64,000 bases of DNA from Candidatus Enteromonas sp. (GCA_050872145.1 JBNMGG010000006.1:2898-66897); one strand, 5' to 3'. Positions 34,629 to 64,000 are shown, numbered from the stretch's first letter. Numbers and translations: made by a program. The notes: generated by a model not told the origin, from the letters alone.

Positions 34629-34655
34629 GCCTCCAAAGGGCGAAAAAATGGTTCG

Positions 34656-34685
34656 AAAAGCGGTAGAAACGTCTACCGCTTTTTA
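34656..34685 (+). terminator. Rho-independent terminator after dnaN
   Basis: AAAAGCGGTAGA-aacg-TCTACCGCTTTT. Confidence 0.8.
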
Positions 34686-34731
34686 TTACATAGTAATAAA
34701 ATGTTCTCAAGGTCATCAGACCCATATTTTT

Positions 34732-34949
34732 ATGGAAAAGGAAAAGCGCACCGCAACGATCAGCACCGAGTACATCACCCTCGGGCAGTTATTGAAATTC
34801 GCCCACGTCATTCAGGAGGGCGGGGAGGCCAAGCATTATTTGGCCGAGCACAAAGTCCTGGTCAACGGCGAGGAAGATTCCCGCCGCGGGCGGAAGCTTC
34901 GCCCCGGGGACGTCGTGGAGGCGGAATCCCTCCGGATCGAAATCGCCTC

Positions 34950-34953
<4 letters not shown>
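34732..34953 (+). CDS. yaaA: S4-domain protein YaaA
   Basis: 73 aa. ITLGQLLKFAHVIQEGGEAKHYLAEHKVLVNGEEDSRRGRKLRPGDVV. Conserved position between dnaN and recF. Confidence 0.85.
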
Positions 34954-38070
<3,117 letters not shown>

Positions 38071-38085
38071 TAGGAGGGCATCACC

Positions 38086-40824: not shown

Positions 40825-40830
40825 CCTTCC

Positions 40831-46751: not shown

Positions 46752-46752
46752 A

Positions 46753-47310
46753 ATGATTACGGAAGCCAAATTCAAGTACGCTTTGAAGAGCATGATGGAA
46801 ACGATGCCCCTTGAGGAAATCAACGTCACCGCCCTATGCGAGAAGTGCAAATGCCATCGGCAGACGTTCTATTACCATTACCAAGACATTTACGATCTCA
46901 TCGCGGCCATTTTCCTCAACGAAGATTTGACGGCCCTTAACAATGCGAAGGATACCAAAAAATCCCTCACGGCCTTCCTGACTTATGCGAAGAACAACTT
47001 TTCCTTCCTTCGCTCTACCTACAACTCCGCAGGGCGCGATCTGACCGATGATTTCGTCTTTGGAAAAATCAATGCGAAACTATTTTCCCTGTGGACCGGA
47101 GACGAGACTTTGGGTCTCAAAAAAGAAGGGGTGCGAACCATGGCGAGGAGGTTCTCCCGCGTCATCGCCGACGAAATCGCCTTCTGCATGAAGGATCAAA
47201 AGCTAACCCCCGAGCGGTTCTACCATTACATGAATCGGTTTTCGGATAATGCGATTCGACTGCTATTGCCCGCTTTCGCCGCTCTTTCCAAAAAGGAGGA
47301 AATGAAATGA
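46753..47310 (+). CDS. TetR-like regulator (DhaS-type)
   Basis: 185 aa. MPLEEINVTALCEKCKCHRQTFYYHYQDIYDL, a TetR-type HTH. Starts 1 nt after the ABC gene. Confidence 0.55.
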   Translation: MITEAKFKYALKSMMETMPLEEINVTALCEKCKCHRQTFYYHYQDIYDLIAAIFLNEDLTALNNAKDTKKSLTAFLTYAKNNFSFLRSTYNSAGRDLTDDFVFGKINAKLFSLWTGDETLGLKKEGVRTMARRFSRVIADEIAFCMKDQKLTPERFYHYMNRFSDNAIRLLLPAFAALSKKEEMK

Positions 47311-48482
47311 TCGATTTCGATTTCGTGGCCCCGACCAAATTGTTCTTTGGGGAAAATGCCGAGCTTCGTTTGGGAGAGATTTTGGAGCACTACCGCGTCA
47401 AGTCGCTTCTTTTGGCTTATGGCGGCGGATCTATCAAAAGAAGCGGTCTTTATCAAACGGTTGTTTCCCAACTTCTGCAAAAAGGAATTTATTTTGAAGA
47501 ACTTGGTGGAATCCGCGCAAATCCAACGCGAGAGTCCGTTTTGCAAGGCGTAGAAAAAACCCGCAAAACCCATTTTGATTTGATTCTTGCCGTTGGCGGT
47601 GGATCGGTTATCGATGCTAGCAAAGCCATCGGCGTCGGCGCTTTTTATCCCGGCGATCCCTTTGATTTCAATCTAAAGAAAGTAGCCCCAACCCAAACGA
47701 TTCCGGTTGGCGTGGTTTTGACGATTGCCAGCGCCGGAAGCGAGATGTCAAATTCTTGCGTGATCTCAAATGATGCGACGGGCATTAAACAAGGGTTCAA
47801 TTCCGATGTTGTCCGTCCTTTGTTCGCTGTTGAAGACCCCAAATTGACCTACACCGTTCCGCCTTGTCAAACCGCCGCGGGATTTTGCGATACGATGATG
47901 CATTCTTTGGAACGCTATTTCGGTGCGTCTGATTCGATGCAGCTTGCCGATGATTGGGCTTTGGATCTCATTAAAAACACAATGAAAGCCGGCGTGGCGG
48001 CGCTAAGGAACCCAACCGATTACCAAGCCCGCGCTTCCTTGATGCTCGATTCTTCCCTTTCCCACAACGGCTATACGGGGATTGGAAAGAAATACTCTTT
48101 CGTGGTTCACCCCCTGGAGCATGCCTTGAGCGGATATCGGCCGGACATCACCCATGGGGCGGGGGTCGCTTTGCTCTTCCCCGCTTGGGCTCGGTATGTT
48201 TATAAGCTTGCCCCTACGAAATTCGCCCGCATGGGAAAGGCTTTGTTTAACTTAGAAGGCGACAGCGAAGAAGAAACGGCTATAATGGGTATCGCGGCGA
48301 TGAAAGATTTCTTTCATTCCGTTGGCATGCCGGTTTCCTTCCAAGAAATCGGAATCGGCGAAGATGACATAAAGCCTCTGTGCGATTTGGCTAGCGGTAA
48401 CGGAACACGTGTGATTGGCTGTTACCCCCAATCACTGAATCGGCAGGACATTGAAGCAATTTACCGGAGCCTGCTCGATTAA
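47307..48482 (+). CDS. iron-containing (group III) alcohol dehydrogenase
   Basis: 391 aa. GGGSVIDASKAIG and the metal-binding His cluster HPLEHALSGYRPDITHGAG. Confidence 0.9.
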   Translation: MIDFDFVAPTKLFFGENAELRLGEILEHYRVKSLLLAYGGGSIKRSGLYQTVVSQLLQKGIYFEELGGIRANPTRESVLQGVEKTRKTHFDLILAVGGGSVIDASKAIGVGAFYPGDPFDFNLKKVAPTQTIPVGVVLTIASAGSEMSNSCVISNDATGIKQGFNSDVVRPLFAVEDPKLTYTVPPCQTAAGFCDTMMHSLERYFGASDSMQLADDWALDLIKNTMKAGVAALRNPTDYQARASLMLDSSLSHNGYTGIGKKYSFVVHPLEHALSGYRPDITHGAGVALLFPAWARYVYKLAPTKFARMGKALFNLEGDSEEETAIMGIAAMKDFFHSVGMPVSFQEIGIGEDDIKPLCDLASGNGTRVIGCYPQSLNRQDIEAIYRSLLD

Positions 48483-53598: not shown

Positions 53599-55209
53599 AT
53601 GAGCAAAAAGTTCTACATCACGACCCCCATTTATTACCCGAGCGCTTCCCCCCATTTGGGACACGCTTACTGCACGACGATGTGCGACATCATCGCCCGC
53701 GGAAAAAGGATGCGCGGCTATGACGTTTTCTTTTTGACCGGGACGGATGAGCACGGCGAGAAAATCGAGGACAACGCGAAAGCCAAAGGGGTCACTCCCC
53801 AGGAATTCGTCGACGACATCGTCAACAACAAGTTCCTGCCGCTTTGGAAAGCCATGGAAATCTCCAACGATGACTTCATCCGCACAACCTCGCCCCGGCA
53901 CGTGGAGACGGTGCAAAAAATCTTCTCCCGCATGTTGGCCCAGGACGACATCTATCTTTCCACCTACACGGGCTGGTATTGCGTCCATGAGGAGACCTAC
54001 TGGACCGAAACCCAAGTCGGCCCGGAGCATCTTTGCCCGGAATGCCACCGTCCGGTGGAGAGAAAAGACGAAGCGGCCTATTTCTTCCGCTGCTCCAAAT
54101 ACGTGGACAAGCTTCTTTCTTTCTACGACTCCAATCCTCAATTCATCACTCCGTCTTCGAAAAAGAATGAGATGGTGAACACCTTCATTAAGCCGGGGCT
54201 TCAGGATCTCTGCGCATCCCGCGCTTCCTTCGATTGGGGGATTCCCGTGAAGGAAAACCCCGAGCACGTCGTCTATGTTTGGCTCGATGCTTTGACGAAC
54301 TACATCACCGCGCTGGGGTATTTGCAGAAAGACGATTCGAAGTTCCAAGAATTCTGGAATGATCCTTCCACCGAAATCGTCCACGTCATCGGGGCGGACA
54401 TCACCCGCTTCCACACGATTTATTGGCCGATGTTCCTTCAATCCTTGGGGCTCCGGCAGCCCAACCGCATCTTCGTGCACGGCCTTTTGATGATGAAGGA
54501 CGGGAAGATGTCCAAGTCCAAGGGGAACGCCATTTCGGCCTATCCCCTCATCGACCGTTACGGGGTCGACGCCGTCCGCTACTACCTGCTTTCAGAGGTC
54601 CCTTTCGGGCAGGATGGGACCTTCACCCCGGAACAATTCGTGATGAGGGTGAACCAGGATTTGGCCAACAACCTCGGCAATTTGCTCAACCGCACCGTGT
54701 CGATGATCCTCAAATACTTCGACGGGATGATCCCTGCTTGGCAGGGGGATTTGACCGACCTCGACAAAGAGCTTTCCTCTTTGGTTGGGAAAACCAAAAT
54801 CGCCTATGAATCCTATAACGACGATTTGAAGGTTTCGGAAGCCTACGTGGAGGTCATGAACCTTGTTTCCCGGGCCAACAAATACATTGAAGAGACCGCT
54901 CCCTGGGCCTTGGCGAAAGACCCCGATAAAAAGAAAGAACTCGAATCGGTCATGGCCCATTTGGCCCACGTCCTCTATAGCGCCGGCATGATGATGAAGC
55001 CGGTTTTGGTCCACAAATCGGACGCCATCTTCGCTTCTTTGGGATGCAGCGAAGAAGACAAGCAATACGAGAACATCTCCAAGCTCGGCTTCTTGGGCGG
55101 AAGGAAAGTCGTCAAAGGCGAGCAGCTCTTCCCGCGCCTTGACGCGGAGAAGGAAATCCAGGCCATCGCCGATATGATGGCTGCCCCCAAAGAAAAGGCG
55201 GCCGCTTGA
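53599..55209 (+). CDS. metG: methionine--tRNA ligase (short form)
   Basis: Class I motifs PHLGHAY and KMSKSKGN. Start set at MSKKFYITTPIYY. Confidence 0.96.
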   Translation: MSKKFYITTPIYYPSASPHLGHAYCTTMCDIIARGKRMRGYDVFFLTGTDEHGEKIEDNAKAKGVTPQEFVDDIVNNKFLPLWKAMEISNDDFIRTTSPRHVETVQKIFSRMLAQDDIYLSTYTGWYCVHEETYWTETQVGPEHLCPECHRPVERKDEAAYFFRCSKYVDKLLSFYDSNPQFITPSSKKNEMVNTFIKPGLQDLCASRASFDWGIPVKENPEHVVYVWLDALTNYITALGYLQKDDSKFQEFWNDPSTEIVHVIGADITRFHTIYWPMFLQSLGLRQPNRIFVHGLLMMKDGKMSKSKGNAISAYPLIDRYGVDAVRYYLLSEVPFGQDGTFTPEQFVMRVNQDLANNLGNLLNRTVSMILKYFDGMIPAWQGDLTDLDKELSSLVGKTKIAYESYNDDLKVSEAYVEVMNLVSRANKYIEETAPWALAKDPDKKKELESVMAHLAHVLYSAGMMMKPVLVHKSDAIFASLGCSEEDKQYENISKLGFLGGRKVVKGEQLFPRLDAEKEIQAIADMMAAPKEKAAA

Positions 55210-56579
55210 TGGAACGGAAACACCCCGACGTCCTGAAAGGAACCTGCGTTGACCTTTCTTACGAAGGGAAAGGCGTTTTCAAATCGGACAAGCAAGTCGT
55301 GTTCGTGGATGGGATGTTCCCCGGGGAAGAAGGGGAGGTCCGGGTTCTTTACAAAAGAGCGGGGGCGTTGTTCGGGGAAGTGAAATCCTTGAGCAAAATC
55401 TCCCCGGACCGCGTTTCCCCTCGATGCAAAATCTGCCATTCCTGCGGTGGCTGCTCCTTGCAGCAGCTTTCCTATAAGGCCCAATTGGAATTCAAATCCA
55501 AAAAGGTTGAGGAACAGTTCCGGAAAGTCGGCCACATGGACGTGAAGGTCAGCCCGTGCATCGGCATGGATGATCCCTGTTATTACCGCAACAAGATTCA
55601 AATGCCTTTCGGCAAGGATCGGCGCGGCAATGTCTACTGCGGGTTTTATAAGCAAAATACGCACGTTTTGGTCCCTGTTGAAGAATGCTTCATCGAGGAT
55701 AAGCGCGCGGTGCACATCCTATCCGTCATCAAAAAGCTTTGCAAAGCGATGCGGGTTGAGCCTTATCAAGAGGACATGGGGCGGGGGATCCTCCGTCACG
55801 TGCTGATCCGCACTTCGCATTACAAAGAGCAGATCATGGTCGTTTTGGTGACCACGGTGGACGTCTTCCCCGGCCGGGGGAACTTCGTCTCCGCCTTGAC
55901 TAGAGAGTGCCCGGAAATCACCACGGTCGTGCAGAACGTCAATTCGCGGGCGACGAACGTGATCCTCGGTGAGAAGGAACGCGTTTTGTTTGGGAAAGGG
56001 TTCATTGAGGATTCGCTCTGCGGCCTTTCCTTCCGCATTTCGGCGAAATCCTTTTACCAAACTAACCCCGTCATCACCGAAAAGCTTTATTCCTATGCGA
56101 TGCAATCGGCCAAACTCAGAAAAGAGGACATCGTCTTCGATGCTTATTCCGGGATCGGGACGATTGGCTTAATCGCGGCGAAAAGCTGCAAACAGGTCCT
56201 TTCGGTGGAATTAGTCCCCGCGGCGGTGAGGGATGGGATCCGCAACGCGAAATTCAACAAAATCGACAACTTCTCCATGTATTGCGATGACGCCAGCTCG
56301 TTTATGGTACGCATGGCCAAAAACAAAGAGAGGGTGGACGTTTTATTTATGGATCCTCCTCGCAAAGGGGCGGATGAGCGTTTCTTGAAGGCTTTGGTTG
56401 CCCTTAAGCCGAATCGCGTCGTTTATGTTTCCTGCGACCCAAGCACGTTGGCCCGGGACGTCGCTTACCTTCAAAAGAGCTACGAAGTCCAAGACGTGCA
56501 GCCCTTTGACATGTTCCCCCAAACCACGCATGTGGAGTGCATCACGTTGCTCTGTCGAAAAGACGTCAAAAATAGCTAA
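55209..56579 (+). CDS. rlmD: 23S rRNA (uracil-C5)-methyltransferase, RlmD/RumA family
   Basis: TRAM N-domain, Fe-S cysteines CKICHSCGGC, SAM motif DAYSGIGTIG, catalytic VYVSCDP. Start is ATG 55209 or TTG 55206, overlapping the metG stop. Confidence 0.88.
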   Translation: MERKHPDVLKGTCVDLSYEGKGVFKSDKQVVFVDGMFPGEEGEVRVLYKRAGALFGEVKSLSKISPDRVSPRCKICHSCGGCSLQQLSYKAQLEFKSKKVEEQFRKVGHMDVKVSPCIGMDDPCYYRNKIQMPFGKDRRGNVYCGFYKQNTHVLVPVEECFIEDKRAVHILSVIKKLCKAMRVEPYQEDMGRGILRHVLIRTSHYKEQIMVVLVTTVDVFPGRGNFVSALTRECPEITTVVQNVNSRATNVILGEKERVLFGKGFIEDSLCGLSFRISAKSFYQTNPVITEKLYSYAMQSAKLRKEDIVFDAYSGIGTIGLIAAKSCKQVLSVELVPAAVRDGIRNAKFNKIDNFSMYCDDASSFMVRMAKNKERVDVLFMDPPRKGADERFLKALVALKPNRVVYVSCDPSTLARDVAYLQKSYEVQDVQPFDMFPQTTHVECITLLCRKDVKNS

Positions 56580-56594
56580 AAAAGGCTGAAAATC

Positions 56595-56634
56595 GAGAGT
56601 TTTGACCGATTCAAAAAGGTTGAGACTCTTTTTT
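56595..56634 (+). terminator. possible terminator of rlmD (imperfect long hairpin plus a T run)
   Basis: GAGAGTTTTGACC...GGTTGAGACTCT pairs with several G-U pairs and is followed by TTTTT. Confidence 0.4.
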
Positions 56635-56839
56635 CTTTGCTGAAAATCGGCTCGGATTCTTCCAAAAATCAAGAAAAATGCCTTTTACTAGTATGGGGAA
56701 ACATATCTACACCCCCAATGTCTTGTACAGGTAACTCGTATGCACACTCGGCTTTGCGGGAACATATCAACTGGATCAAAAACAAGCTTATAAAAGTTTA
56801 AGATTGCAAAGTAAATATTTAAATCTGTGGTATCAAAAG

Positions 56840-56869
56840 TTGACAAAACGAAAACATTTCTGATACAAT
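56840..56869 (+). promoter_or_regulatory. strong sigma-70 promoter of the island operon
   Basis: TTGACA (56840-56845), 18-nt spacer ending in TG-a, then TACAAT (56864-56869). Confidence 0.6.
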
Positions 56870-56894
56870 GGAATCGCTTTGTGGGGTGATACAT

Positions 56895-57098
56895 ATGCGT
56901 ATTTCATATAACAAGCTTTGGAAGCTTTTGATAGATAAGGGAATGAAGAAGAAGGATTTGAAAGAAAAGGCTTCTTTGAGTTCCGCATCAGTTGCCAAAC
57001 TCGGTAAAAACGAACCGGTCGCAATGGATGTTTTGCTTCGCATTTGTACTGTCCTTGACTGTGATATCAGCGACGTCATGCAGTTCATAAAAGAATAG
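56895..57098 (+). CDS. XRE/Cro-C1-type HTH regulator (controller-like, precedes the methylases)
   Basis: 67 aa. MRISYNKLWKLLIDKGMKKKDLKEKASLSSASVAKLGKNEPVAMDVLLRICTVLDCDISDV. GGGGTGA Shine-Dalgarno. Internal start of track ORF 56868..57098. Confidence 0.8.
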   Translation: MRISYNKLWKLLIDKGMKKKDLKEKASLSSASVAKLGKNEPVAMDVLLRICTVLDCDISDVMQFIKE

Positions 57099-57109
57099 GT
57101 GCTAAAAGA

Positions 57110-58210
57110 ATGAAAAGATTAAACATAGGCACGGTTTTTAGTGGAATAGGCGCTCCCGAGCAGGCTCTTATCAAATTAGGATATAAATTGAATATTCTTT
57201 TTGCCTGCGATAATGGTGAGATTGAAATTAAAACCCCCGTAGAAGATATAAAGACTAAAACAAAGGGGATGAGCCCTGAAAAGGTAAACGAGTATGTCAA
57301 ACAAATCTATAGGGACACAAAGAAAACCAATTACGTTAAGCAAAGTTATTTTGCAAATTACAAAATCAAAGAAAAAGATTGGTATGACGACATACGTTTT
57401 TTAGATGGAACCATATACAAGGATAAACTTGATGTGCTTGTTGGCGGCAGTCCTTGCCAAAGCTTCTCGATTATCGGGAAGCGTGCAGGACTGGAAGATG
57501 TCAGAGGCACTCTTTTTTATGATTATGCACGATTGATCAAGCAAACTTCTCCGAAGGTATTTGTTTATGAAAATGTTCCTGGAATGCTTGTTCATGACCA
57601 TGGCAACACGTGGAAAGTGATCCAGTCCGTGTTCGAATCTTTGGGCTACAGCGTTTTCTATTCCGTATTAAATGCCAAAGATTACGGAATCCCACAAGAT
57701 AGAAAAAGACTCTTTGTCGTTGGCTTTAAAGACAAAAATGTCAATTTTTCTTTCCCTGAGCCTATGCCTTTGAAAACCGAGTTGAAGGATTTTCTCGATA
57801 AAGAGATTGATGCTCGTCATTATCTAGGGAAAAAGGGATTCGAATTTGTTACGAATCCAAAATATAAAAACAGAGCCAGGGTAAATGCCAAAATCATCCA
57901 AACGGAAAAGGCCAATCAACAATTCAATTGGAATGGTGACTTTGTTTTCGAGGAATTAAGTTCCGTTGAGCAAAGAAAGAACAAAGATGAAGTCCTTAAA
58001 AGGGCATATGTGTCTCAATGGAATGGAAAAACTGGAGTTATCCGCCAGCTTACTTATAGGGAATGCCTGAGGCTGATGGGATTTTCGGAAGATTTCAAGA
58101 TTGTCGTTCCAAATGTTCCGGCATATAGGCAGGCAGGAAATTCTATTGTCGTCAATGTTTTGGAAGCCCTGTTCAGGCAAATATTTAAGGCGGTGAACAT
58201 CCATGATTAG
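57110..58210 (+). CDS. DNA (cytosine-5)-methyltransferase 1
   Basis: 366 aa. Motif I FSGIGAPE, IV GGSPCQSFS, VI ENVPGM, VIII QDRKRLFVVG, X AGNSIVVNV. Confidence 0.95.
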   Translation: MKRLNIGTVFSGIGAPEQALIKLGYKLNILFACDNGEIEIKTPVEDIKTKTKGMSPEKVNEYVKQIYRDTKKTNYVKQSYFANYKIKEKDWYDDIRFLDGTIYKDKLDVLVGGSPCQSFSIIGKRAGLEDVRGTLFYDYARLIKQTSPKVFVYENVPGMLVHDHGNTWKVIQSVFESLGYSVFYSVLNAKDYGIPQDRKRLFVVGFKDKNVNFSFPEPMPLKTELKDFLDKEIDARHYLGKKGFEFVTNPKYKNRARVNAKIIQTEKANQQFNWNGDFVFEELSSVEQRKNKDEVLKRAYVSQWNGKTGVIRQLTYRECLRLMGFSEDFKIVVPNVPAYRQAGNSIVVNVLEALFRQIFKAVNIHD

Positions 58211-59342
58211 GTTAGCTACGATTTTCAGCGGAATTGGTGCCGTGGAGTTTGCCATGAGAAGGCTAAATCTCAAGCATGAAATTGTCTTTGCTTGTGATAA
58301 CGGCGAACGAGAAGTCGAATATGATATAGAAAAGGAAAGAAAAGCTGTTTTCTCTTTGAACACAAAGAAAGAGAAGAAGGAATATGTGGATCGACTTTAT
58401 TCTTCTCTTACAAGAAAAACAAACTATGTGGAGAAAAGCTATCTCGCCAATTACAAATCTCTAAAAGAAGAAAATTACTATCAAGACGTTATTTTACTAG
58501 ATGGGAAAGATTACAAAGGGGAGGTTGACCTCTTTGTTGGCGGTAGCCCTTGTCAAAGTTTCTCTTCTGTCGGCTTTCAAGGAGGCCTCGAGGATGCGAG
58601 AGGAACGCTTTTCTATGAATATGCGAGACTTGTGAAAGAAATCAGGCCAAAGGTCTTTATTTACGAGAACGTCAGAAATTTATTGAATCATGATCGTGGA
58701 AATACATGGAAAGTGATTAAGGGAATCTTTGACTCTCTTGGGTATTCCTATAAGTTTGAAGTTCTGAATGCCTCTGATTATGGCATTCCACAAACAAGAA
58801 GAAGGCTGTTTGTCGTTGGATTCCGAAAAGATCTTAAGATTGATGTCGAACACGATTTTGTTTTTCCTCCAAAGACAAAAGCAAGACATTTCGTAATGAA
58901 GGATTTTTCTATCAACAACTGTGCCGAAGGCAATATGGTCTTTGACAAAAAGGGTGAGATTAAACTCAAAAAGGGTGGAGGAGTTCCTGATAGCAAATAC
59001 ACTTTGAGTCCTAAGCTTTATGCCTATGTTATGAAGACGGGCACGAAAACTTGGAGCCAAAAAGTCGAAATAAATCTTGATGTCGGGAGAACGCTTCTCA
59101 AGACAATGGGAAACAGGCATAGGGCTGGAGTGGACAATTACATTTCTTTCGATGGAACGGAAGATATGGGGTCTGTAAGAATGCTTACGGAAAGAGAAGC
59201 CCATAGATTGATGGGATTTACGGATGATTATCAAATCGTCGTTTCGAGATGCCAGGCATATAAGCAAGCTGGCAATTCTATTGTCGTCGATGTCATGATG
59301 GCTATTTTGAAATCGATAATGAAGACGGGCGTCTTCGATTAG
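58203..59342 (+). CDS. DNA (cytosine-5)-methyltransferase 2
   Basis: 379 aa. Motif I FSGIGAVE, IV GGSPCQSFS, VI ENVRNL, VIII QTRRRLFVVG, X AGNSIVVDV. 8-nt overlap with methylase 1. Confidence 0.95.
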   Translation: MIRLATIFSGIGAVEFAMRRLNLKHEIVFACDNGEREVEYDIEKERKAVFSLNTKKEKKEYVDRLYSSLTRKTNYVEKSYLANYKSLKEENYYQDVILLDGKDYKGEVDLFVGGSPCQSFSSVGFQGGLEDARGTLFYEYARLVKEIRPKVFIYENVRNLLNHDRGNTWKVIKGIFDSLGYSYKFEVLNASDYGIPQTRRRLFVVGFRKDLKIDVEHDFVFPPKTKARHFVMKDFSINNCAEGNMVFDKKGEIKLKKGGGVPDSKYTLSPKLYAYVMKTGTKTWSQKVEINLDVGRTLLKTMGNRHRAGVDNYISFDGTEDMGSVRMLTEREAHRLMGFTDDYQIVVSRCQAYKQAGNSIVVDVMMAILKSIMKTGVFD

Positions 59343-59361
59343 AACTAAAGGGGAATAAATT

Positions 59362-60816
59362 ATGGAAAAAGAACTTGTGCCATTTTCAATAAATCCAGGA
59401 ACCGGAATGATGGATGTTCTAGGCCATTCTGGATATACATTCAACTTCGCAATTGCGGATTTGCTCGATAATTGCATATCCGCACATGCCAAAAATATAA
59501 AGCTGTTTTTTGACCTGAATTCACCAAAGCCATATTTATATATTTTGGATGATGGAAATGGCATGAGCCTGAATGAGCTGCAAAACTCAGCGGTCATAGG
59601 TTTCAAGGATATCAGTTCTGAAAGGGAATCGGATGATTTGGGAAGATATAGCACCGGCTTAAAATCTGCTACCAGATCATTTTGCGACGATGTCATCATT
59701 TCTTCTAAGAAAGACGGTCAAACGTGCAACTCCATTGAAATCGACTATTCACATATAAAAGAATCCAAAAAATGGGAAGCTTTTGTCCTTAAAGGTTTTT
59801 CACTAGAAGATAAGATAGGTAACCACGGCACATTGGTTTGCTGCAAAAAGCTTCATTTTTCAAATGATATTTCCTTGAATAAGAACGTTTTTGGAAAATT
59901 GAACGATTTAGAAAAATCCATCAGTCATATTTTTGGAAAATATCTTCTTTCGGGTGACATCAAAATTTCTATCCAGGTAAGTGGTTCTACAGAGAATCTG
60001 GTTATTGGGTGGAACCCTTTTGCGTTGCCTGAAAACAAGTCTACAAAACTTGTATATAAAGGAACGAGAAAATATAAAAGCGAAACGATTTCCTTTAAGG
60101 CCTACGTTCTACCCACCTATGGAAATCTTTCCAAAACGGATCAGTCCTATATGGAAGGCAACGGTTTAATTGACCAAGAAGGCTTCTATGTTTATCGAAA
60201 TAAAAGATTGATCAAAGAAGGTGGGTGGCTGTCACTAGATAAAATGGGTTTAGATGACAAGTGCAAATATGCCAGAATCGATGTGGAGATTCCTTCTGCT
60301 CTGGATAAGGAATTTCAAATCAATTTCAGCAAGAACTCCTTGAGCATTCCCGAGGATTTAAAGGACACATTTACGGATGTTGCGAATAAGGCAAGAAGAG
60401 AATCCCGCTCTAATTTCAATTATGTCAAACACCCGGAGATGAAGCGGACGACCAAGAAGGAAGAAGAAAGAATTTGGAAAACTGCCAAAAGTGATGGTGC
60501 GTTGGTTTTGTCAATCAATATGCAGCACCCTTTAATCCAGGAAATATCTTCTAAGTTACCAGCAGCTGATTTGAAAAAGCTGTGTACCCTTTTATCGAAG
60601 ACATTGCCTCTTTCTATGATTCAGGAGCAAAACACAACGGTCGTTTCTTACACGGATAACGAGCTTGAGGATTTGATGGATGGAATGTATCAGAAACTGT
60701 TGAGCGATGGTTTGGGTGAGAAGACGGCGAGGAAGAAAATGGCTAGTATGGAACCTTTCAAGGATCATTTGAATCTTTTGATTGAGTTCTTCGATAAGAT
60801 GGAGGAAAAGAAATGA
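59362..60816 (+). CDS. GHKL-superfamily ATPase (HATPase_c_3, MORC/MutL-like)
   Basis: 484 aa. N box DLLDNCISAHA, G1 LDDGNGMS, G2 GRYSTGLKSA. No TM segment and no histidine-kinase dimerisation or His box. Confidence 0.8.
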   Translation: MEKELVPFSINPGTGMMDVLGHSGYTFNFAIADLLDNCISAHAKNIKLFFDLNSPKPYLYILDDGNGMSLNELQNSAVIGFKDISSERESDDLGRYSTGLKSATRSFCDDVIISSKKDGQTCNSIEIDYSHIKESKKWEAFVLKGFSLEDKIGNHGTLVCCKKLHFSNDISLNKNVFGKLNDLEKSISHIFGKYLLSGDIKISIQVSGSTENLVIGWNPFALPENKSTKLVYKGTRKYKSETISFKAYVLPTYGNLSKTDQSYMEGNGLIDQEGFYVYRNKRLIKEGGWLSLDKMGLDDKCKYARIDVEIPSALDKEFQINFSKNSLSIPEDLKDTFTDVANKARRESRSNFNYVKHPEMKRTTKKEEERIWKTAKSDGALVLSINMQHPLIQEISSKLPAADLKKLCTLLSKTLPLSMIQEQNTTVVSYTDNELEDLMDGMYQKLLSDGLGEKTARKKMASMEPFKDHLNLLIEFFDKMEEKK

Positions 60817-63578
60817 CAAACGATACAAAGAATAAGATTACCGATTTGCTTTTCGGAATCATGCAAAAGGCGGAAAAGCTTCCCTCTATTGAAGAGAAGA
60901 AGAATTTTTATCTTGGCTACTTGGAAAGAAATGTAGATTATATCGATTCCGATGAAGTCATTGATCCGCATTCTGAAGAAGTAGAAGAGCTAATCACCGA
61001 TAAGTTTTTGACGATTGAAGTTGATAAGCCAAAAATCTTTGAAGATGAAGGGTACGTTCCTTGGCTTCAAGATGCCAGAAAAGACATCAACTGGCAGTTT
61101 TATGATAGATATGAAAGATATCTTTTGGATTATAAAAGATGGAAGCCAAAGGCGATTGCCGATTTGAAGAAGACTTCGGACATCATCTTGGATCATATGG
61201 CTAATCCGAAAAGCGATAAGCTTTTCAATAAAAAAGGTCTTGTAATCGGTGATATTCAATCAGGAAAAACTGCAAATTACACTGCTGTCATAAATAAAGC
61301 AATCGATGCCGGATACAAAATTGTCATCGTCTTTGCCGGCCTTACAAGAGATTTGAGAAATCAAACACAGAATCGTCTGGATTCGGAAGTTTTAGGTTAT
61401 GAAACAAAGACCCATGGCAAGGGCAGCAATATTGGTGTCGGACTTGTCCGTCCTCTCAATATTGAAGGTTTGACTTACGCCGATGAAAAGAAGGATTTCG
61501 GCGATATGAAGAAATTCTTCTCCGTCCATACTTTGGATAAAGACGTCAAGCCTATTGTTGCCATTGTGAAGAAGAATAAGAGCGTTCTTGGCCATCTTGA
61601 CCGCTTTTTGACACAGTCTCAATCGAGTTGCTATACCGATGGGAAATTGGATATTCCTGTTTTGATTATCGATGATGAGGTTGATCAGGCCAGTGTCGAT
61701 ACTAAGGATGCGGAAGAAGCGGAAAACGCCTCGGCTATCAATAAGATGATCAGAACCATCCTAAGCCATCTCAATAGGTATTCTTATGTCGGATATACGG
61801 CAACTCCTTTTGCAAACGTTTTTGTCAATCCTGACAGGGATGATATCTATCCAAAGGACTTCATTTTGTGTTTACCAACAAATGAGGACTATTGTGGTAT
61901 CAAAGAGTATTTCGGCGTTGATGCTCTGGATGAAAAGGATGACTCAAGCGACCATGTTCATGACTTGTTTGTCAATATATCCGATTACAAGGATTTGTTT
62001 GCCACCAATGATAGGATCAATGCTCAAACCAGCACGGATTCTTTGAATAGGTCCCTTAAGGATGCGATTATGTCTTTCATAATTGCCGCATCCATTAAAA
62101 AATCCCGTGGCATTGAAGGCTTCAACTCGATGCTGATTCATATCGCGAGATTCAAAAATCCATCTACGACATTGAAGCCGTTGGTTTCTGACTATATCGA
62201 TGGACTTTATAACAACCTGAAGTATTCCTACGAAAAGACGATCAAGGAATATGAGGAGTTTTGGGAAGATAATTTTGCTCCCGTCAGTGAAAGAAGGCTC
62301 GGAGCCGATTTCAAAGATAATTGGGATTCTATCAAGAACTTCTTGATGCCGACCATTGAGTCGATTCAAATGAATATAAAGGTCGTGAACGGGGATTCGG
62401 AAGATTTGTTGGATTATTCAAGCACGAAATCTGGCGACTATATCGTCATTGGCGGGGATAAGCTGTCACGTGGTTTGACCCTTGAAGGATTGGTTGTCTC
62501 TTATTATTACCGTAGATCAAGAACCTATGATTCCCTTCTTCAAATGGGCCGTTGGTTTGGATATCGCCGCGGTTGGATAGACGTCTGCAGGGTTTTCACT
62601 ACGGTGAATTTTATGAATGATTTCATCACGGTCGGGAAGGTTCTCCAACGATTCAAGGCTGATGTGCAAGAGATGTATGACATGCATTTGAATCCAAGAG
62701 AAGTGGGTCAAAGGATTATGTATTCTCCTAATTTGATTCCTACCGCAAGGAACAAGATGAAGACAACCACGAAGATTAAGATTTCTTTCTCTGGCGGAAT
62801 TCAGCAAATCATCACCTTTGATAGGAATTTCAGGGAAGACAACCTGGAATTGACAAGAAATTTCATTGCTTCCTTAGGAAAAGGCGAGGTTCGTCCTAAT
62901 AGAAAAGTCGTGTTCAAAGGAGTTTCGTCTAATACGATCTTGAATTATCTCAAGAAATATAAAGATTGCAGCAACTACTATGATTACGGCCATATCAGCA
63001 TTGGGAACTGGATAAAGTACATAGAGAATCTGAATGCACGTGGGGAATTGAAGGAATGGACCATCGTGTTAAATTCTCTACAAACCGAGAAAGCCGACAA
63101 TAAAATCAATATCGGCGGCTATGAAATATATAAAGCTTCAAGAACTCTGAGAGACGATGGTGATTCATCAGCTTTCAAGTTTTATACGATTAAAACAAAC
63201 AATGACCCGACTGATTTTAGGGAAGTGTTTGATCCTTCTTCCAAAGAATATGCAGAGACAGACCATTATGATCCTGAAAAAGACTATCCTGGATTCGATT
63301 CAACAAAGGGCGTGATGGCTATCTATGTAGTCGATTTATACGAGAAAATACTGACAAATGAATTCGATCCGAAAACCAATAAGCAAAAGACCATCCGTGG
63401 AAAACTGATCGAAGATGGAAAATCAATGTGTGCACCAGCTATTTGGTTCTCCAAGACGAAGGATTATGAAAGCTCTGCAACCACTTACTATGTGAGCAAA
63501 GATTATCTCGAAAGAGAAAAGAGGGAAGAAGCGGATGAAGAAGACGAAGAAATGGTAGGAGGAGAAACAAATGCTTAA
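60813..63578 (+). CDS. Z1-domain SF2 helicase-like NTPase
   Basis: 921 aa. Walker A GDIQSGKTANYT, Walker B / DExD-like LIIDDEVDQAS, GYTATPFAN, Z1 region GGDKLSRGLTLEGL and QMGRWFGYRRGW, acidic tail. ATGA overlap with the GHKL gene. Confidence 0.8.
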   Translation: MTNDTKNKITDLLFGIMQKAEKLPSIEEKKNFYLGYLERNVDYIDSDEVIDPHSEEVEELITDKFLTIEVDKPKIFEDEGYVPWLQDARKDINWQFYDRYERYLLDYKRWKPKAIADLKKTSDIILDHMANPKSDKLFNKKGLVIGDIQSGKTANYTAVINKAIDAGYKIVIVFAGLTRDLRNQTQNRLDSEVLGYETKTHGKGSNIGVGLVRPLNIEGLTYADEKKDFGDMKKFFSVHTLDKDVKPIVAIVKKNKSVLGHLDRFLTQSQSSCYTDGKLDIPVLIIDDEVDQASVDTKDAEEAENASAINKMIRTILSHLNRYSYVGYTATPFANVFVNPDRDDIYPKDFILCLPTNEDYCGIKEYFGVDALDEKDDSSDHVHDLFVNISDYKDLFATNDRINAQTSTDSLNRSLKDAIMSFIIAASIKKSRGIEGFNSMLIHIARFKNPSTTLKPLVSDYIDGLYNNLKYSYEKTIKEYEEFWEDNFAPVSERRLGADFKDNWDSIKNFLMPTIESIQMNIKVVNGDSEDLLDYSSTKSGDYIVIGGDKLSRGLTLEGLVVSYYYRRSRTYDSLLQMGRWFGYRRGWIDVCRVFTTVNFMNDFITVGKVLQRFKADVQEMYDMHLNPREVGQRIMYSPNLIPTARNKMKTTTKIKISFSGGIQQIITFDRNFREDNLELTRNFIASLGKGEVRPNRKVVFKGVSSNTILNYLKKYKDCSNYYDYGHISIGNWIKYIENLNARGELKEWTIVLNSLQTEKADNKINIGGYEIYKASRTLRDDGDSSAFKFYTIKTNNDPTDFREVFDPSSKEYAETDHYDPEKDYPGFDSTKGVMAIYVVDLYEKILTNEFDPKTNKQKTIRGKLIEDGKSMCAPAIWFSKTKDYESSATTYYVSKDYLEREKREEADEEDEEMVGGETNA

Positions 63579-64000
63579 AACGGTATATGAAAAATGGGAA
63601 GAATTAAAAGCCAAGCCAAAAGATGCCGGCAAAAACATCATTGCTAAATACTTCTTGGGTGGAAAATCAAAAGCGAATGTCTTCTTTGGCTTAATTGATG
63701 AGAAGATGTGTGTCTATGTTGAGTTCACTAAAGAGGTTTTAGCTGATTTGGATGTTCCTACATTAAAGGGTATGTACATCGAAGTGGTGGATGAACCATT
63801 GATCAACCCCGAAAAGAAATATTTATTGGTCCGAAATGACAGCAACAACGAAGAAATCTTTGAGGCTTTCACAAGTTCCTTAACGGACGGACTAGCGAAT
63901 TCGACATCGTATTTTGATACCTATCAGGTATTTAAAAATGTTGTTAAAGAATATAAAGATTATTTTGCGAATCCCAATCCTTCCTTGTCAAAGCAGGAGG
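63571..64000 (+). CDS. hypothetical protein, probable PD-(D/E)XK-motif partner of Z1 (3' end beyond the window)
   Basis: Open frame from ATG 63571 (GGAGG Shine-Dalgarno, 8-nt overlap with the Z1 gene) to the window end: MLKTVYEKWEELKAKPKDAG...NPNPSLSKQE. Function is inferred from gene context only, because the catalytic motif would lie downstream of 64000. Confidence 0.5.
   Translation, partial: MLKTVYEKWEELKAKPKDAGKNIIAKYFLGGKSKANVFFGLIDEKMCVYVEFTKEVLADLDVPTLKGMYIEVVDEPLINPEKKYLLVRNDSNNEEIFEAFTSSLTDGLANSTSYFDTYQVFKNVVKEYKDYFANPNPSLSKQE

What the first reader, a model, noticed from the sequence alone, without database searches (positions are those of the whole stretch)
56580..64000. Abrupt low-GC accessory island inserted directly after the rlmD terminator
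Base composition changes sharply at about 56580. My hand counts of single 60-nt lines give 37/60 G+C in gyrA (line 38401), against 22/60 and 25/60 in the island (lines 60001 and 62401).

The long antisense shadow ORFs that pervade the high-GC core mostly disappear in the island. All six island genes point the same way and are tightly packed: 11-nt gap, 8-nt overlap, 19-nt gap, 4-nt overlap, 8-nt overlap.

No integrase, transposase, tRNA or phage gene is visible. The acquisition mechanism and the right boundary are therefore unknown.
Basis: seen in the sequence. Interest (0 to 1): 0.65.

Follow-up and report, generated by a model that had tools for sequence, protein, structure and literature searches.

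The report
Defence island inserted in rlmD tail
The low-GC stretch is a real, horizontally acquired island inserted into the last codons of the rRNA methyltransferase gene rlmD/rumA. It carries a multi-gene restriction-modification-like phage-defence cassette of a kind already predicted from genomes, so it is a good example rather than a new type of system.

Summary
GC falls from 0.533 (core) to 0.391, with a maximum-likelihood change point at 56558. GC3 drops from 0.69-0.75 to 0.40-0.48. The gene spacings are as stated.

The genes form one cassette: HTH regulator, two C5-cytosine methyltransferases (LlaJI-type pair), a MORC-like GHKL ATPase, a Z1 SF2 motor and a DUF4420 PD-(D/E)XK nuclease. 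An identical public contig continues the cassette with an AIPR protein and two conserved unknown proteins. After these come a Hachiman helicase remnant and an IS1634 element, all still low-GC (at least 14.2 kb).

The cassette is a distant relative of Mza. It matches operons predicted by Iyer et al. 2008 and Miller et al. 2022.

The true left junction lies inside rlmD (about 56535-56545). The last 14 codons, the terminator and a roughly 190-nt arm travel with the island into unrelated hosts.

Sister genomes carry other restriction systems at this site. One has the same methylase pair joined to LlaJI-type nucleases and a conjugative backbone. This fits the known rumA-targeting integrative elements.

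The right end, the recombinase and any conjugation genes were not found for this genome.

Verdict: a new member of a known kind, of moderate interest.

The parts
55206..56579 (+). rlmD/rumA, a 23S rRNA (uracil-5)-methyltransferase and the target gene. The body up to about 56535 is host sequence. The last ~14 codons (ECITLLCRKDVKNS*) are supplied by the island.
   Evidence: Pfam tRNA_U5-meth_tr, E 3e-26. Only L037 shares this C-terminal tail. L038 is an equally close relative (90% protein identity), yet it and the others end ...HVETVVLLSRK....
56528..56561 (.). Junction (attL-like) zone inside the rlmD 3' end.
   Evidence: Nucleotide homology to L003, L004, L005 and L007 stops at 56537. L099 (host GC 0.30) and L038 (host GC 0.54) jump from about 50% to about 92% identity exactly at the CATGTTGAG (HVE) codons. 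Logan assembly graphs branch at 56528/56529, and a foreign contig shares only 56528-56561.
56595..56636 (+). Intrinsic terminator of rlmD: a 13-bp stem, a 10-nt loop and a U6 tract. It is carried on the island's arm.
   Evidence: RNA fold gives -20.1 kcal/mol with z -3.1. The consensus scanner missed it because the loop exceeds 8 nt.
56580..56770 (.). Conserved left arm of the element. It contains two copies of a GGGRAACATATC-type motif (56694-56710 and 56755-56771) and an 11-nt repeat GCTGAAAATCG (56585 and 56639). Probably a recombination or regulatory arm rather than an RNA.
   Evidence: About 92% identical to L037, against about 86% for the flanking core genes; homology collapses at 56771. 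The same arm, with an rlmD-tail fragment, precedes the cassette in L102 and L105, where no rlmD body is adjacent. Repeats. No Rfam hit, and folding is not unusual.
56840..56869 (+). Sigma-70-type promoter of the cassette: TTGACA, 18-nt spacer, TACAAT, with a TG extension.
   Evidence: 11 of 12 consensus matches. This is a consensus match only; function is inferred.
56895..57098 (+). Small Cro/C1-type HTH protein of 67 aa (the ORF can be read from 56868). Probably the controller protein of the cassette.
   Evidence: Pfam HTH_26, E 4e-18. The NCBIfam VanU-like alignment starts at residue 10 of the long ORF. An RBS, GGGGTG, lies before ATG 56895 (sequence). 97% identical in L102 and L105.
57110..58210 (+). 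M1, a C5-cytosine DNA methyltransferase.
   Evidence: Pfam DNA_methylase, E 3e-71; TIGR00675 dcm 245.6 bits. All catalytic motifs are intact: FSGIG, GGSPCQSFS, YENV, QDRKRLF, QAGNSIVV. The best plasmid homologue (47%) sits beside an AAA ATPase and a LlaJI-family endonuclease.
58203..59342 (+). M2, a second C5-cytosine DNA methyltransferase. It is 44% identical to M1 and has a different target-recognition region.
   Evidence: Pfam DNA_methylase, E 7e-69. M1/M2 identity. The M1 and M2 target-recognition regions differ from each other, but each is conserved across the window, L037 and L104.
59362..60816 (+). GHKL (MORC/MutL-like) ATPase, a distant MzaB homologue. Asp33 occupies the position of the catalytic Glu.
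   Evidence: Pfam HATPase_c_3, E 1e-25. PADLOC MzaB, E 2.5e-44. NCBIfam MzaB 188 bits against a cut-off of 850. The nearest solved relatives are MORC2/3/4 and SMCHD1; the motif reads AIADLLDN where MORC2 has ALAELVDN.
60813..63578 (+). DEAD-Z1 SF2 helicase-like motor, a distant MzaC homologue.
   Evidence: Pfam Z1, E 3e-61. PADLOC MzaC, E 4e-108. NCBIfam MzaC 457 bits against a cut-off of 1500. Invariant Walker A (GDIQSGKT), DDEVDQ, TATP and DSLLQMGRWFG motifs. The AlphaFold model (pLDDT 77.8) matches Chd1, Mfd, Pol-theta helicase and HsdR.
63571..64000 (+). N-terminal 143 residues of the DUF4420 PD-(D/E)XK protein (MzaD-like). The gene runs off the window.
   Evidence: Pfam DUF4420, E 2.8e-4 for the fragment and 1.2e-47 for the full 326 aa in L001. 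The E...D...EIK motif lies beyond the window end (sequence).

Best explanation
**What it is**

Window 56536-64000 is the left part of a horizontally acquired island of at least 14.2 kb. It sits at the 3' end of rlmD (rumA).

The element brings its own copy of:
- the last ~14 rlmD codons;
- the rlmD terminator;
- a roughly 190-nt arm with repeated GGGRAACATATC motifs.

Its cargo starts at 56771.

I infer that it is an integrative element, or the decayed remnant of one. Known members of that class insert site-specifically into rumA and exchange the gene's 3' end. In sister genomes the same arm family is followed by a relaxase-T4CP-VirB4 conjugative backbone. Between the arm and that backbone lies a variable slot filled with defence genes.

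**The cargo**

The cargo is one co-directional, translationally coupled cassette behind a strong promoter:
1. a controller-type HTH protein;
2. two C5-cytosine methyltransferases with different target-recognition regions, which I infer each methylate one strand of an asymmetric site, as in LlaJI;
3. a restriction module, made of a MORC-like GHKL ATPase, a DEAD-Z1 SF2 translocase, a DUF4420 PD-(D/E)XK nuclease, an AIPR protein and two conserved unknown proteins (182 and 241 aa).

**Proposed mechanism (inferred)**

- The methylases mark host DNA as self.
- On unmethylated incoming DNA, the Z1 motor translocates double-stranded DNA using ATP.
- The GHKL ATPase acts as a clamp or looping switch.
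- DUF4420 cuts the DNA.

This would make it an ATP-dependent, multi-subunit restriction-modification system related to Mza.

**Shown versus inferred**

- Shown: composition, gene content, conservation of the cassette as a unit, junction position, and variability of the site.
- Inferred: site-specific integration in this genome, the methylation target, and the division of labour among the proteins.
For: **Composition.**

**Gene identities.**

**Extension beyond the window.**
- Contig L001 is 100% identical to 56702-64000.
- It adds DUF4420, AIPR, p182, p241, a HamB C-terminal remnant and IS1634.
- All of it has GC 0.30-0.40.

**The cassette is a unit.**
- L102 and L105 carry it at 70-97% protein identity; L102's contig ends inside the AIPR gene.
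- L104 carries eight of the nine genes (no HTH was called) at 64-78%, in a host of GC about 0.25.
- The flanks differ in each case.

**The site is variable.**

| Locus | rlmD identity | Downstream of rlmD |
|---|---|---|
| L037 | 91% | HTH-M1-M2, then McrB-like and LlaJI nucleases, then sigma-like protein and MobL relaxase |
| L038 | 90% | Eco57I-type methylase |
| L003 | 81% | CoiA-like protein, HTH-RNase III, type I restriction system, RES protein |
| L011, L039 | 70-73% | Host-GC housekeeping genes |

- No downstream homology exists among these loci except window-L037 and one 65-residue L003-L038 match.

**The junction is inside rlmD.**
- The tail differs between equally close relatives.
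- L099 and L038 become about 92% identical exactly at the HVE codons, for about 325 nt.
- L102 and L105 keep the arm and an rlmD-tail fragment without an rlmD body.
- L106, from a host of GC 0.30, has rlmD and the start of the arm fused to codon ~35 of p241. That stretch is 91% identical to L001 at the nucleotide level, so L106 is a deletion derivative of the same island type.

**Conjugative backbone next to rlmD.** L099, L100 and L101.

**Literature.**
- Streptococcal ICEs with a single serine integrase insert in rumA and swap the 3' ends. CTn5 of C. difficile also uses rumA (PMC4701971).
- MORC + Z1-helicase + restriction-endonuclease-fold + Dcm + AIPR operons were predicted to be restriction-modification systems (PMC2292703).
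- A Z1 + DUF4420 + Dcm + AIPR + MORC + regulator 'Type II' system was described as related to the validated mzaABCDE (PMC9523054).
- DEAD-Z1 is an ATP-driven double-stranded-DNA translocation motor in CglI (PMC5861437).
- LlaJI uses two 5mC methylases for an asymmetric site (PMC1459862).
- The M1 and M2 target-recognition regions are conserved between the window and the LlaJI-type L037.
Against: **Mobility**
- No recombinase, relaxase or second att copy was found for this genome. The only extension available ends in an IS after 14.2 kb.
- In the samples that hold this strain, an L037-like sigma-MobL backbone is present only at depth 4-5, against 21-28 for the strain. A closely related conjugative module is therefore probably not attached here.
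- L106 shows 10.6 kb of defence genes after rlmD with no conjugation genes.

**Family membership**
- All four Mza-like proteins score far below the NCBIfam equivalog cut-offs.

**Mechanism**
- The GHKL general-base Glu is replaced by Asp in all four cassettes, so ATP turnover may be atypical.
- No subunit could be assigned to sequence recognition. No cassette protein resembles LlaJI R1 or R2.
- No methylation or restriction data exist.
Confidence: 0.62

Rival explanations
1. The block is a non-conjugative defence island at a recombination hot spot. It is swapped between strains by homologous recombination through flanking core genes, or by cassette exchange at the arm. It has no dedicated site-specific integrase and is not part of an ICE.
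For: - There is no integrase or relaxase in 14.2 kb.
- L106 has over 10 kb of defence genes after rlmD with no conjugation module.
- The L037-type backbone is present only at low depth in the strain's own samples.
- Many MAG contigs of relatives break at rlmD.
- Cargo differs completely between species while the arm is retained.
Against: - The rlmD tail and arm move with the cargo into hosts whose rlmD body is only about 50-65% identical (L099/L038; L106). They also move into places with no rlmD body at all (L102 and L105). Flank-mediated homologous recombination cannot do this.
- The same arm family is directly followed by a complete conjugative backbone in L099 and by a relaxase in L037.
Confidence: 0.25
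2. The restriction-like genes form a methylation-independent defence system (Mza-like, abortive infection or Type IV). The two methylases would then be a separate, merely adjacent module, either orphan or the remnant of a LlaJI system that lost R1 and R2.
For: - Canonical mzaABCDE has a sigma-factor-like MzaA and no methylase (PMC9523054).
- AIPR is named for abortive infection.
- The same methylase pair is used with LlaJI R1 and R2 in L037 and near L098.
Against: - M1 and M2 co-occur with GHKL and Z1 in all four independent cassettes, with matching divergence: 64-91% for M1-M2 against 67-88% for GHKL-Z1.
- Their ORFs overlap or nearly abut those of their neighbours.
- Iyer et al. and Miller et al. 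both found cytosine methylases to be a regular partner of this gene set.
Confidence: 0.12
3. The low-GC block is an assembly or binning artefact, or a native region with unusual composition, rather than acquired DNA linked to rlmD.
For: - The public contigs break at 56572-56711.
- Island depth (28.1 and 19.9) exceeds core depth (21.4 and 14.7).
Against: - In X1 and X2, 169-nt unitigs bridge the core and the island at both ends.
- An independent assembly (L037) shows rlmD, the arm, HTH, M1 and M2 contiguous within a 133-kb contig.
- The depth excess follows the library's GC bias: GC 0.60 contigs are at 17.8-18.8, GC 0.52 contigs at 21.4-22, and GC 0.39 at 28.1.
- Relatives lack the genes.
Confidence: 0.02

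Closest known systems
MORC/paraMORC restriction-modification operons, type 3 (Iyer, Abhiman and Aravind 2008, PMC2292703), and the 'Type II' Z1-DUF4420-Dcm-AIPR-MORC system of Miller et al. 2022 (PMC9523054)
   Same: The gene set matches:
- a GHKL ATPase;
- an SF2 helicase carrying the DThhQXuRhFG motif (here DSLLQMGRWFG);
- a restriction-endonuclease-fold E-D-ExK protein;
- a cytosine methylase;
- an AIPR protein;
- a small transcriptional regulator.
   Different: - This cassette has two methylases of the LlaJI M1/M2 type rather than one.
- Two further conserved proteins (182 and 241 aa) follow AIPR.
- I could not check whether those two proteins are among the uncharacterised genes in the published figures.
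- Neither paper gives experimental data for this variant.
mzaABCDE (Mza) anti-phage system. PADLOC and NCBIfam hold models for it; Miller et al. 2022 cite Gao et al. 2020 for it.
   Same: MzaB, MzaC, MzaD and MzaE are each the best or only defence-model hit for the GHKL, Z1, DUF4420 and AIPR proteins. The four genes are in the same order.
   Different: - Scores are 4 to 5 times below the equivalog cut-offs: 188/850, 457/1500, 87.5/420 and 263/1050.
- There is no MzaA-like sigma factor.
- Methylases and an HTH protein are present instead.
LlaJI restriction-modification system of Lactococcus lactis pNP40 (PMC1459862)
   Same: - Two tandem 5mC methylases with different target-recognition regions lie upstream of the restriction genes, all in one orientation.
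- The nearest plasmid homologue of M1 sits beside an AAA ATPase and a LlaJI-family endonuclease.
- The sister locus L037 has the full LlaJI architecture with orthologous M1 and M2.
   Different: The McrB-like R1 and the LlaJI R2 are absent from the window and are replaced by GHKL-Z1-DUF4420-AIPR-p182-p241. No sequence similarity links the two restriction modules.
CglI/NgoAVII ATP-dependent restriction enzymes (PMC4267653, PMC5861437)
   Same: A C5-methylase plus a DEAD-Z1 helicase-like subunit, whose ATP-driven translocation of double-stranded DNA activates a separate nuclease subunit.
   Different: - The CglI R-subunit (B3-like reader plus PLD nuclease) is absent here.
- The nuclease candidate here is a PD-(D/E)XK protein.
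- A GHKL ATPase, AIPR and two other proteins are added.
rumA-targeting integrative conjugative elements of Firmicutes: Tn1549, Tn5252 and vanG-type ICEs with a single serine integrase, and CTn5 (Ambroset et al. 2016, PMC4701971)
   Same: - Insertion is in the 3' part of rumA/rlmD, and the C-terminus of the protein is replaced.
- Related loci carry relaxase, T4CP, VirB4 and pilin genes directly after rlmD.
   Different: - The host is an uncultured gut Bacilli lineage. Its nearest named relatives are 'Bacillales bacterium UBA1624' and Candidatus Alloenteromonas.
- The relaxase in related loci is MobL-type.
- For this genome, no integrase, att repeat or conjugation gene has been seen.

Membership tests
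Horizontally acquired genomic island | Compositional discontinuity against the host core (GC, GC3, oligonucleotide usage) | tested here: met
   GC is 0.391 against 0.533, with non-overlapping 1-kb window ranges. GC3 is 0.40-0.48 against 0.69-0.75. Tetranucleotide r is 0.85 against 0.96-0.97.
Horizontally acquired genomic island | Absent from, or replaced at, the same locus in close relatives | tested here: met
   L038, L003, L011 and L039 have unrelated genes after rlmD. Only L037 shares HTH-M1-M2, and at lower identity than the core.
Horizontally acquired genomic island | Defined right boundary | not testable with these tools
   The window ends at 64000.
rumA/rlmD-targeting integrative (conjugative) element | Insertion within the 3' part of rumA, with an element-supplied replacement C-terminus | tested here: met
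rumA/rlmD-targeting integrative (conjugative) element | Site-specific (serine) recombinase at the far end, with attR in or next to it, and short direct repeats | not testable with these tools
   The right end was not available. A low-depth contig that shares only 56528-56561 is a candidate att copy but remains unresolved.
rumA/rlmD-targeting integrative (conjugative) element | Conjugation module (relaxase, coupling protein, VirB4) | tested here: inconclusive
   The module is present behind the same arm family in L037, L099, L100 and L101. It was not found in the 14.2 kb known for this genome. An L037-like backbone occurs only at depth 4-5 in the strain's samples.
Mza (mzaABCDE) | MzaB, MzaC, MzaD and MzaE at equivalog level | tested here: not met
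   NCBIfam scores against cut-offs are 188/850, 457/1500, 87.5/420 and 263/1050. Homology is nonetheless clear: PADLOC E-values are 2.5e-44, 3.9e-108, 1.4e-13 and 9.3e-59.
Mza (mzaABCDE) | MzaA (sigma-factor-like, according to Miller et al. 2022) | tested here: not met
   The cassette has no such gene. An HTH_26 protein and two Dcm-type methylases precede MzaB-like.
MORC/paraMORC-Z1 restriction-modification operon (Iyer 2008 type 3; Miller 2022 Type II) | GHKL ATPase, SF2 helicase with the DThhQXuRhFG motif, E-D-ExK restriction-endonuclease-fold protein, cytosine methylase and AIPR, all in one operon | tested here: met
   Pfam hits. The DSLLQMGRWFG motif, with D573, Q577, R580, F582 and G583 invariant. 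The RDFVFDKVAIEIK motif in DUF4420. Gene order.
LlaJI-type restriction-modification system | Two tandem 5mC methylases with distinct target-recognition regions | tested here: met
   M1 and M2 are 44% identical. Their target-recognition regions are unrelated to each other but conserved among orthologues.
LlaJI-type restriction-modification system | McrB-like GTPase R1 plus LlaJI-family R2 nuclease | tested here: not met
   Both are absent from the window and from L001. Both are present in sister locus L037.
LlaJI-type restriction-modification system | Methylation of each strand of an asymmetric site | not testable with these tools
   This needs methylome or biochemical data.
CglI/NgoAVII | DEAD-Z1 H-subunit together with an R-subunit (B3-like reader plus PLD nuclease) | tested here: not met
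   A Z1 motor is present, but no protein in the cassette has a PLD or B3 domain.

The most novel reading that the evidence does not exclude
The same LlaJI-type pair of strand-specific C5 methylases, with conserved target-recognition regions, is wired at the same chromosomal slot to two unrelated restriction machines in sister species. One is a McrBC-like LlaJI R1/R2 pair. The other is the six-protein GHKL-Z1-DUF4420-AIPR-p182-p241 machine.

If both machines read the same unmethylated asymmetric site, this would be a natural effector swap. It would show that Mza-like machines are true methylation-gated restriction enzymes.

It would also point to one of the two unknown proteins as a new kind of site reader. 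The candidate is p241. Its model is very confident, it has no structural match in the PDB or BFVD, and it has an invariant NCNH-x3-H-x-CW motif.
Probability: 0.2. Interest if true: 0.6.

Novelty: new member of a known kind. Interest (0 to 1): 0.35.

Why it matters
The locus gives a clean, well-delimited natural example of three things.

1. **A defence-gene slot in an uncultured gut Bacilli lineage.** It lies at the rlmD/rumA-proximal end of integrative elements. Four different restriction systems occupy the same site in four close relatives.

2. **An experimentally uncharacterised Mza-like system in its methylase-linked form.** This helps decide whether Mza-type GHKL/Z1/AIPR machines are restriction-modification systems. 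The sister locus, with the same methylases but LlaJI nucleases, is a ready-made comparison.

3. **Two conserved accessory proteins of unknown fold that belong to the system.**

None of this overturns current ideas. The kind of island, the integration site and the gene set are all described in the literature.

Tried and rejected
- **Extra copies of the island.** Island depth exceeds core depth in four runs. This follows the GC bias of the libraries, so it is rejected as evidence of copy number or excision.
- **An RNA gene in the conserved arm.** There is no Rfam hit, no tRNA or tmRNA, and no unusual folding of 56640-56780.
- **Direct repeats of the left junction.** None occurs within L001 or the window beyond chance 11-13-mers.
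- **A shared DNA-reader domain.** No similarity exists between LlaJI R1/R2 and any cassette protein.
- **Extending the window's own island.**
  - The exact rlmD protein is not on record.
  - The MetG look-up gave only the same samples.
- **Finding the L037 contig's right end.** The exact relaxase was not a cluster representative, so only related ICEs were retrieved.
- **Solved structures by sequence.** None was found for Z1, AIPR or DUF4420.
- **Fold of p241.** No match in the PDB or BFVD.
- **Near-identical DNA on known plasmids or phages.** None was found; only methylase-level similarity appeared.
- **The 345-codon antisense ORF as a gene.** Rejected, because it is absent from 88%-identical cassettes.
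- **The original Mza description.** The PADLOC paper does not mention Mza, and Gao et al. 2020 is not held in the library.

Full report
**1. The observation**

- The three 60-nt lines count 37, 22 and 25 G+C.
- At 1-kb resolution the window runs at 0.46-0.61 GC up to 56 kb, then at 0.38-0.41 to the end.
- The core (1-56535) is 0.533 and the remainder is 0.391.
- The lowest 1-kb core window (0.446) is above the highest island window (0.418).
- The maximum-likelihood change point is 56558, with plausible splits at 56445-56665.
- GC3 falls from 0.75 and 0.69 (metG, rlmD) to 0.40-0.48.
- Tetranucleotide usage correlates with the core at 0.85, against 0.96-0.97 for core chunks.
- Stop-free stretches of at least 100 codons drop from 3.0 to 1.3 per kb.
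- The six ORFs and their 11-nt, -8-nt, 19-nt, -4-nt and -8-nt spacings are as stated.
- The window holds no tRNA, and none of the six island genes has an integrase, transposase or phage-protein match.

**2. What the genes are**

| Position | Product | Evidence |
|---|---|---|
| 56895-57098 (ORF from 56868) | Cro/C1-type HTH protein | |
| 57110-58210 | C5-cytosine methyltransferase M1 | |
| 58203-59342 | C5-cytosine methyltransferase M2 | |
| 59362-60816 | GHKL ATPase | |
| 60813-63578 | DEAD-Z1 SF2 protein | |
| 63571 onward | DUF4420 PD-(D/E)XK protein (start only) | |

- The HTH gene sits behind a near-consensus extended -10 promoter.
- Both methylases have every catalytic motif intact. They are 44% identical to each other and have different target-recognition regions.
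- The nearest solved relatives of the GHKL ATPase are MORC2/3/4 and SMCHD1.
- The Z1 protein has intact Walker A, DExD, TATP and DSLLQMGRWFG motifs.
- Its predicted structure matches double-stranded-DNA translocases such as Mfd, Chd1 and HsdR.

A public contig, L001, is 100% identical to 56702-64000 and continues for 6.9 kb. It adds, in order:
- the rest of DUF4420;
- an AIPR protein;
- two proteins of 182 and 241 aa with no family match;
- on the other strand, the last 166 residues of a Hachiman HamB helicase;
- an IS1634-family transposase;
- a 90-aa ORF.

All of this has GC 0.30-0.40.

The PADLOC and NCBIfam models MzaB, MzaC, MzaD and MzaE are the best hits for the four middle proteins. 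Their scores are 4 to 5 times below the curated equivalog cut-offs.

**3. The cassette is a unit**

Close homologues of the Z1 protein are numerous in gut metagenomes.

In three other contigs the same genes recur in the same order, from HTH through M1, M2, GHKL, Z1, DUF4420, AIPR and p182 to p241.
- L102 and L105 share 70-97% protein identity with the window's cassette; L102's contig ends inside the AIPR gene.
- L104 shares 64-78%, lacks a called HTH gene, and sits in a host of GC about 0.25.
- The neighbours differ each time: Schlafen/AlbA, Fic, ThsB-TIR, caspase or Cap4 nuclease genes.

The two unknown proteins therefore belong to the system.

A homologue of p241 folds with very high confidence (pLDDT 96, pTM 0.87). 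It matches nothing in the PDB or BFVD. Its family has an invariant NCNH-x3-H-x-CW-x2-QD segment.

**4. Where the island starts**

The homology break is not at the terminator.
- Against L037 (rlmD protein 91% identical; core DNA about 86% identical), the window is about 92% identical from the rlmD 3' end through 56770. It then falls to 62-75% across HTH, M1 and M2.
- L038 is an equally close relative (90%). It and all other relatives diverge from the window already at about 56538, inside rlmD.
- The window and L037 end ...HVECITLLCRKDVKNS*. The others end ...HVETVVLLSRK...*.
- L099 (host GC 0.30) and L038 (host GC 0.54) have rlmD bodies only about 50% identical. They become about 92% identical exactly at the HVE codons and stay so for about 325 nt.
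- L102 and L105 carry the arm and an rlmD-tail fragment in front of the cassette, although no rlmD body is adjacent.
- L106 and L107 (host GC about 0.30) have rlmD, the tail and the first ~35 nt of the window-type arm. These are fused directly to codon ~35 of a p241 homologue that is 91% identical to L001 at the nucleotide level. This is a deletion derivative of the same island type at rlmD in an unrelated host.

The tail, the terminator and the arm to 56770 are therefore element sequence.
- The terminator is a 13-bp stem plus U6, at -20.1 kcal/mol.
- The arm contains two GGGRAACATATC-type repeats.
- The arm is not a known or evidently structured RNA.

**5. How it probably got there**

The site downstream of rlmD is hypervariable in this lineage.

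| Locus | Content after rlmD |
|---|---|
| L037 | The orthologous HTH-M1-M2, then a McrB-like AAA protein and a LlaJI-family nuclease, then a sigma-r4 protein, a small ORF and a MobL relaxase |
| L038 | An Eco57I-type methylase |
| L003 | CoiA-like, HTH-RNase III, type I HsdM/HsdS and RES genes |
| L011, L039 | Host-GC housekeeping genes |

Apart from window-L037 and one 65-residue L003-L038 match, no downstream homology exists among these loci.

Relatives of the L037 relaxase sit in a full conjugative backbone: relaxase, coupling protein, large surface protein, pilin and VirB4.
- In L099 this backbone starts directly after rlmD.
- In L100 and L101 it is preceded by other defence genes.

Ambroset et al. 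2016 describe exactly this behaviour for streptococcal ICEs. Single serine integrases insert them into rumA and exchange the 3' ends of rumA and the integrase gene. CTn5 of C. difficile behaves the same way.

I therefore read the island as the rlmD-proximal cargo region of such an element, or of its decayed remnant.

This is an inference for the present genome, for three reasons.
- No recombinase, att repeat or conjugation gene was seen in the 14.2 kb available.
- In the two samples richest in this strain, an L037-like backbone is present only at depth 4-5, against 21-28.
- L106 shows that long defence-only islands exist at this site.

The higher depth of the island is library GC bias, not extra copies.

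**6. How the cassette probably works**

The gene set is the one Iyer, Abhiman and Aravind (2008) predicted to be a restriction-modification system. It comprises:
- a MORC-like GHKL ATPase;
- an SF2 helicase with the DThhQXuRhFG motif;
- a new restriction-endonuclease-fold protein;
- a cytosine methylase;
- an AIPR protein.

Miller et al. (2022) re-found it as a 'Type II' putative defence system. They reported about 20% identity to the validated mzaBCDE.

In CglI, a DEAD-Z1 subunit is an ATP-driven double-stranded-DNA translocase that activates a separate nuclease.

The methylase pair is of the LlaJI type. In LlaJI, M1 and M2 each modify one strand of an asymmetric site.
- The best plasmid homologue of M1 lies beside LlaJI-type restriction genes.
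- The target-recognition regions of M1 and M2 are conserved between the window and the LlaJI-type L037.

My best mechanism has four steps.
1. M1 and M2 mark self DNA.
2. On unmethylated DNA the Z1 motor translocates.
3. The GHKL ATPase acts as a clamp or looping switch.
4. DUF4420 cuts.

The roles of AIPR, p182 and p241 are open; site reading or regulation are possibilities.

Several points remain unsettled.
- Which subunit reads the sequence. No cassette protein resembles LlaJI R1 or R2.
- The meaning of Asp in place of the GHKL catalytic Glu. It is conserved in four cassettes.
- Whether the system acts by restriction or by abortive infection.

**7. Comparison and novelty**

The island type, the integration site and the gene set all have precedents.

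It is not a bona fide Mza: the equivalog cut-offs are not met and there is no MzaA. It is not a LlaJI or CglI system: their nuclease subunits are absent. It fits the Iyer type-3 and Miller Type II description.

Three points are modestly new.
- The two-methylase form.
- The two extra conserved proteins, one with an unmatched fold.
- The natural swap of restriction modules behind one methylase pair at the same chromosomal slot in sister species.

I rate it a new member of a known kind, with interest 0.35.

**8. Population heterogeneity**

In two other runs of the same study (X3, X4) the cassette is present with rearrangements.
- One contig joins window 57673 (inside M1) to sequence 26 nt outside the IS1634 inverted repeat.
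- One junction skips 59567-60178, which is 612 nt, in frame, inside the GHKL gene.
- One junction skips 57944-58277.

A 169-nt bubble with 12 SNPs in the arm (56573-56681) occurs in X1 and X2. These variants suggest ongoing decay or variation of the cassette. They were not followed further.

Noticed in passing
window 58680-59699 (- strand): An antisense ORF of 339 aa (345 stop-free codons) overlaps the M2 3' end and the GHKL 5' end. None of 1000 synonymous-codon shuffles reaches this length (mean 146, maximum 317). The equivalent stretch is only 114, 113 and 77 codons in the homologous cassettes L102, L105 and L104, so it is probably not a gene.
   Followed up: yes
window 57673; L001 11775-11803: In run X3 a contig covers 56529-57673 and then continues into 29 nt identical to L001 11775-11803. 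That sequence lies 26 nt outside the 13-bp perfect inverted repeat of the IS1634 element (AAAGGCGTAATAT at L001 11801-11813 and 13710-13722). Either an IS copy has inserted in M1, or a deletion of about 10.8 kb has removed most of the cassette in part of the population.
   Followed up: partly
window 59566-60179 and 57943-58278: Contigs in runs X3 and X4 skip 612 nt (in frame) inside the GHKL gene. One X3 contig skips 334 nt across the M1/M2 boundary. These are deletion variants of the cassette in other samples.
   Followed up: no
window 56543-56711: In runs X1 and X2 the assembly graph has a 169-nt bubble with two alleles that differ at 12 positions (56573-56681), at depths 24.2/9.3 and 8.3/8.0. 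Two arm variants are linked to the same core and island contigs.
   Followed up: no
window 56528-56561: A low-depth contig (5.9 in X1, 2.8 in X2) shares only these 34 nt, with one mismatch, and has unrelated sequence on both sides. In X3 and X4 the island contig continues leftward into unrelated sequence before 56529. This may be another att copy or a related element in a rarer organism; it is unresolved.
   Followed up: partly
window 59458-59460 (GHKL residue 33): In motif I of the GHKL fold, the position of the catalytic Glu (ALAELVDN in MORC2) is Asp (AIADLLDN). The Asp is conserved in all four cassettes examined. The Mg-binding Asn and the DxGxG and GxxGxG motifs are intact.
   Followed up: partly
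L001 9832-11111 (equivalent to window 66533-67812): Two conserved proteins of 182 and 241 aa follow AIPR in every full cassette. Neither matches Pfam, PADLOC or NCBIfam. The model of a p241 homologue has pLDDT 96 but no fold match in the PDB or BFVD. Its family has an invariant NCNH-x3-H-x-CW-x2-QD segment, a possible metal-binding or active site.
   Followed up: partly
L001 11156-11716 (- strand): Only the C-terminal ~166 residues of a Hachiman HamB helicase are present (PADLOC HamB positions 708-864 of 866, E 4e-47). They abut the IS1634 element, so this is a broken second defence system. The 90-aa ORF beyond the IS is not HamB.
   Followed up: partly
L106/L107 9900-10624: A deletion derivative of the window-type island in a host of GC 0.30. 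The rlmD tail and about 35 nt of arm are fused to codon ~35 of the p241 homologue. A Cap4 nuclease and a 564-aa gene follow, as in L105.
   Followed up: yes
L002, L005, L006, L007, L012 (relatives' contigs): Many MAG contigs of related species end within or just after rlmD. This is consistent with strain-variable or repeated sequence at this site breaking the assemblies.
   Followed up: no
window 30000-64000 in runs X1 and X2: Contig depth falls as GC rises: 17.8-18.8 at GC about 0.60, 21.4-22 at about 0.52, and 28.1 at 0.39. This GC bias in the libraries mimics a copy-number difference.
   Followed up: yes
window 34000-43000 versus 44000-48000: The core itself is compositionally uneven. The gyrA-containing block runs at GC 0.57-0.61, and the following 4 kb at 0.46-0.49. 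The contrast is much weaker than at the island and was not examined.
   Followed up: no
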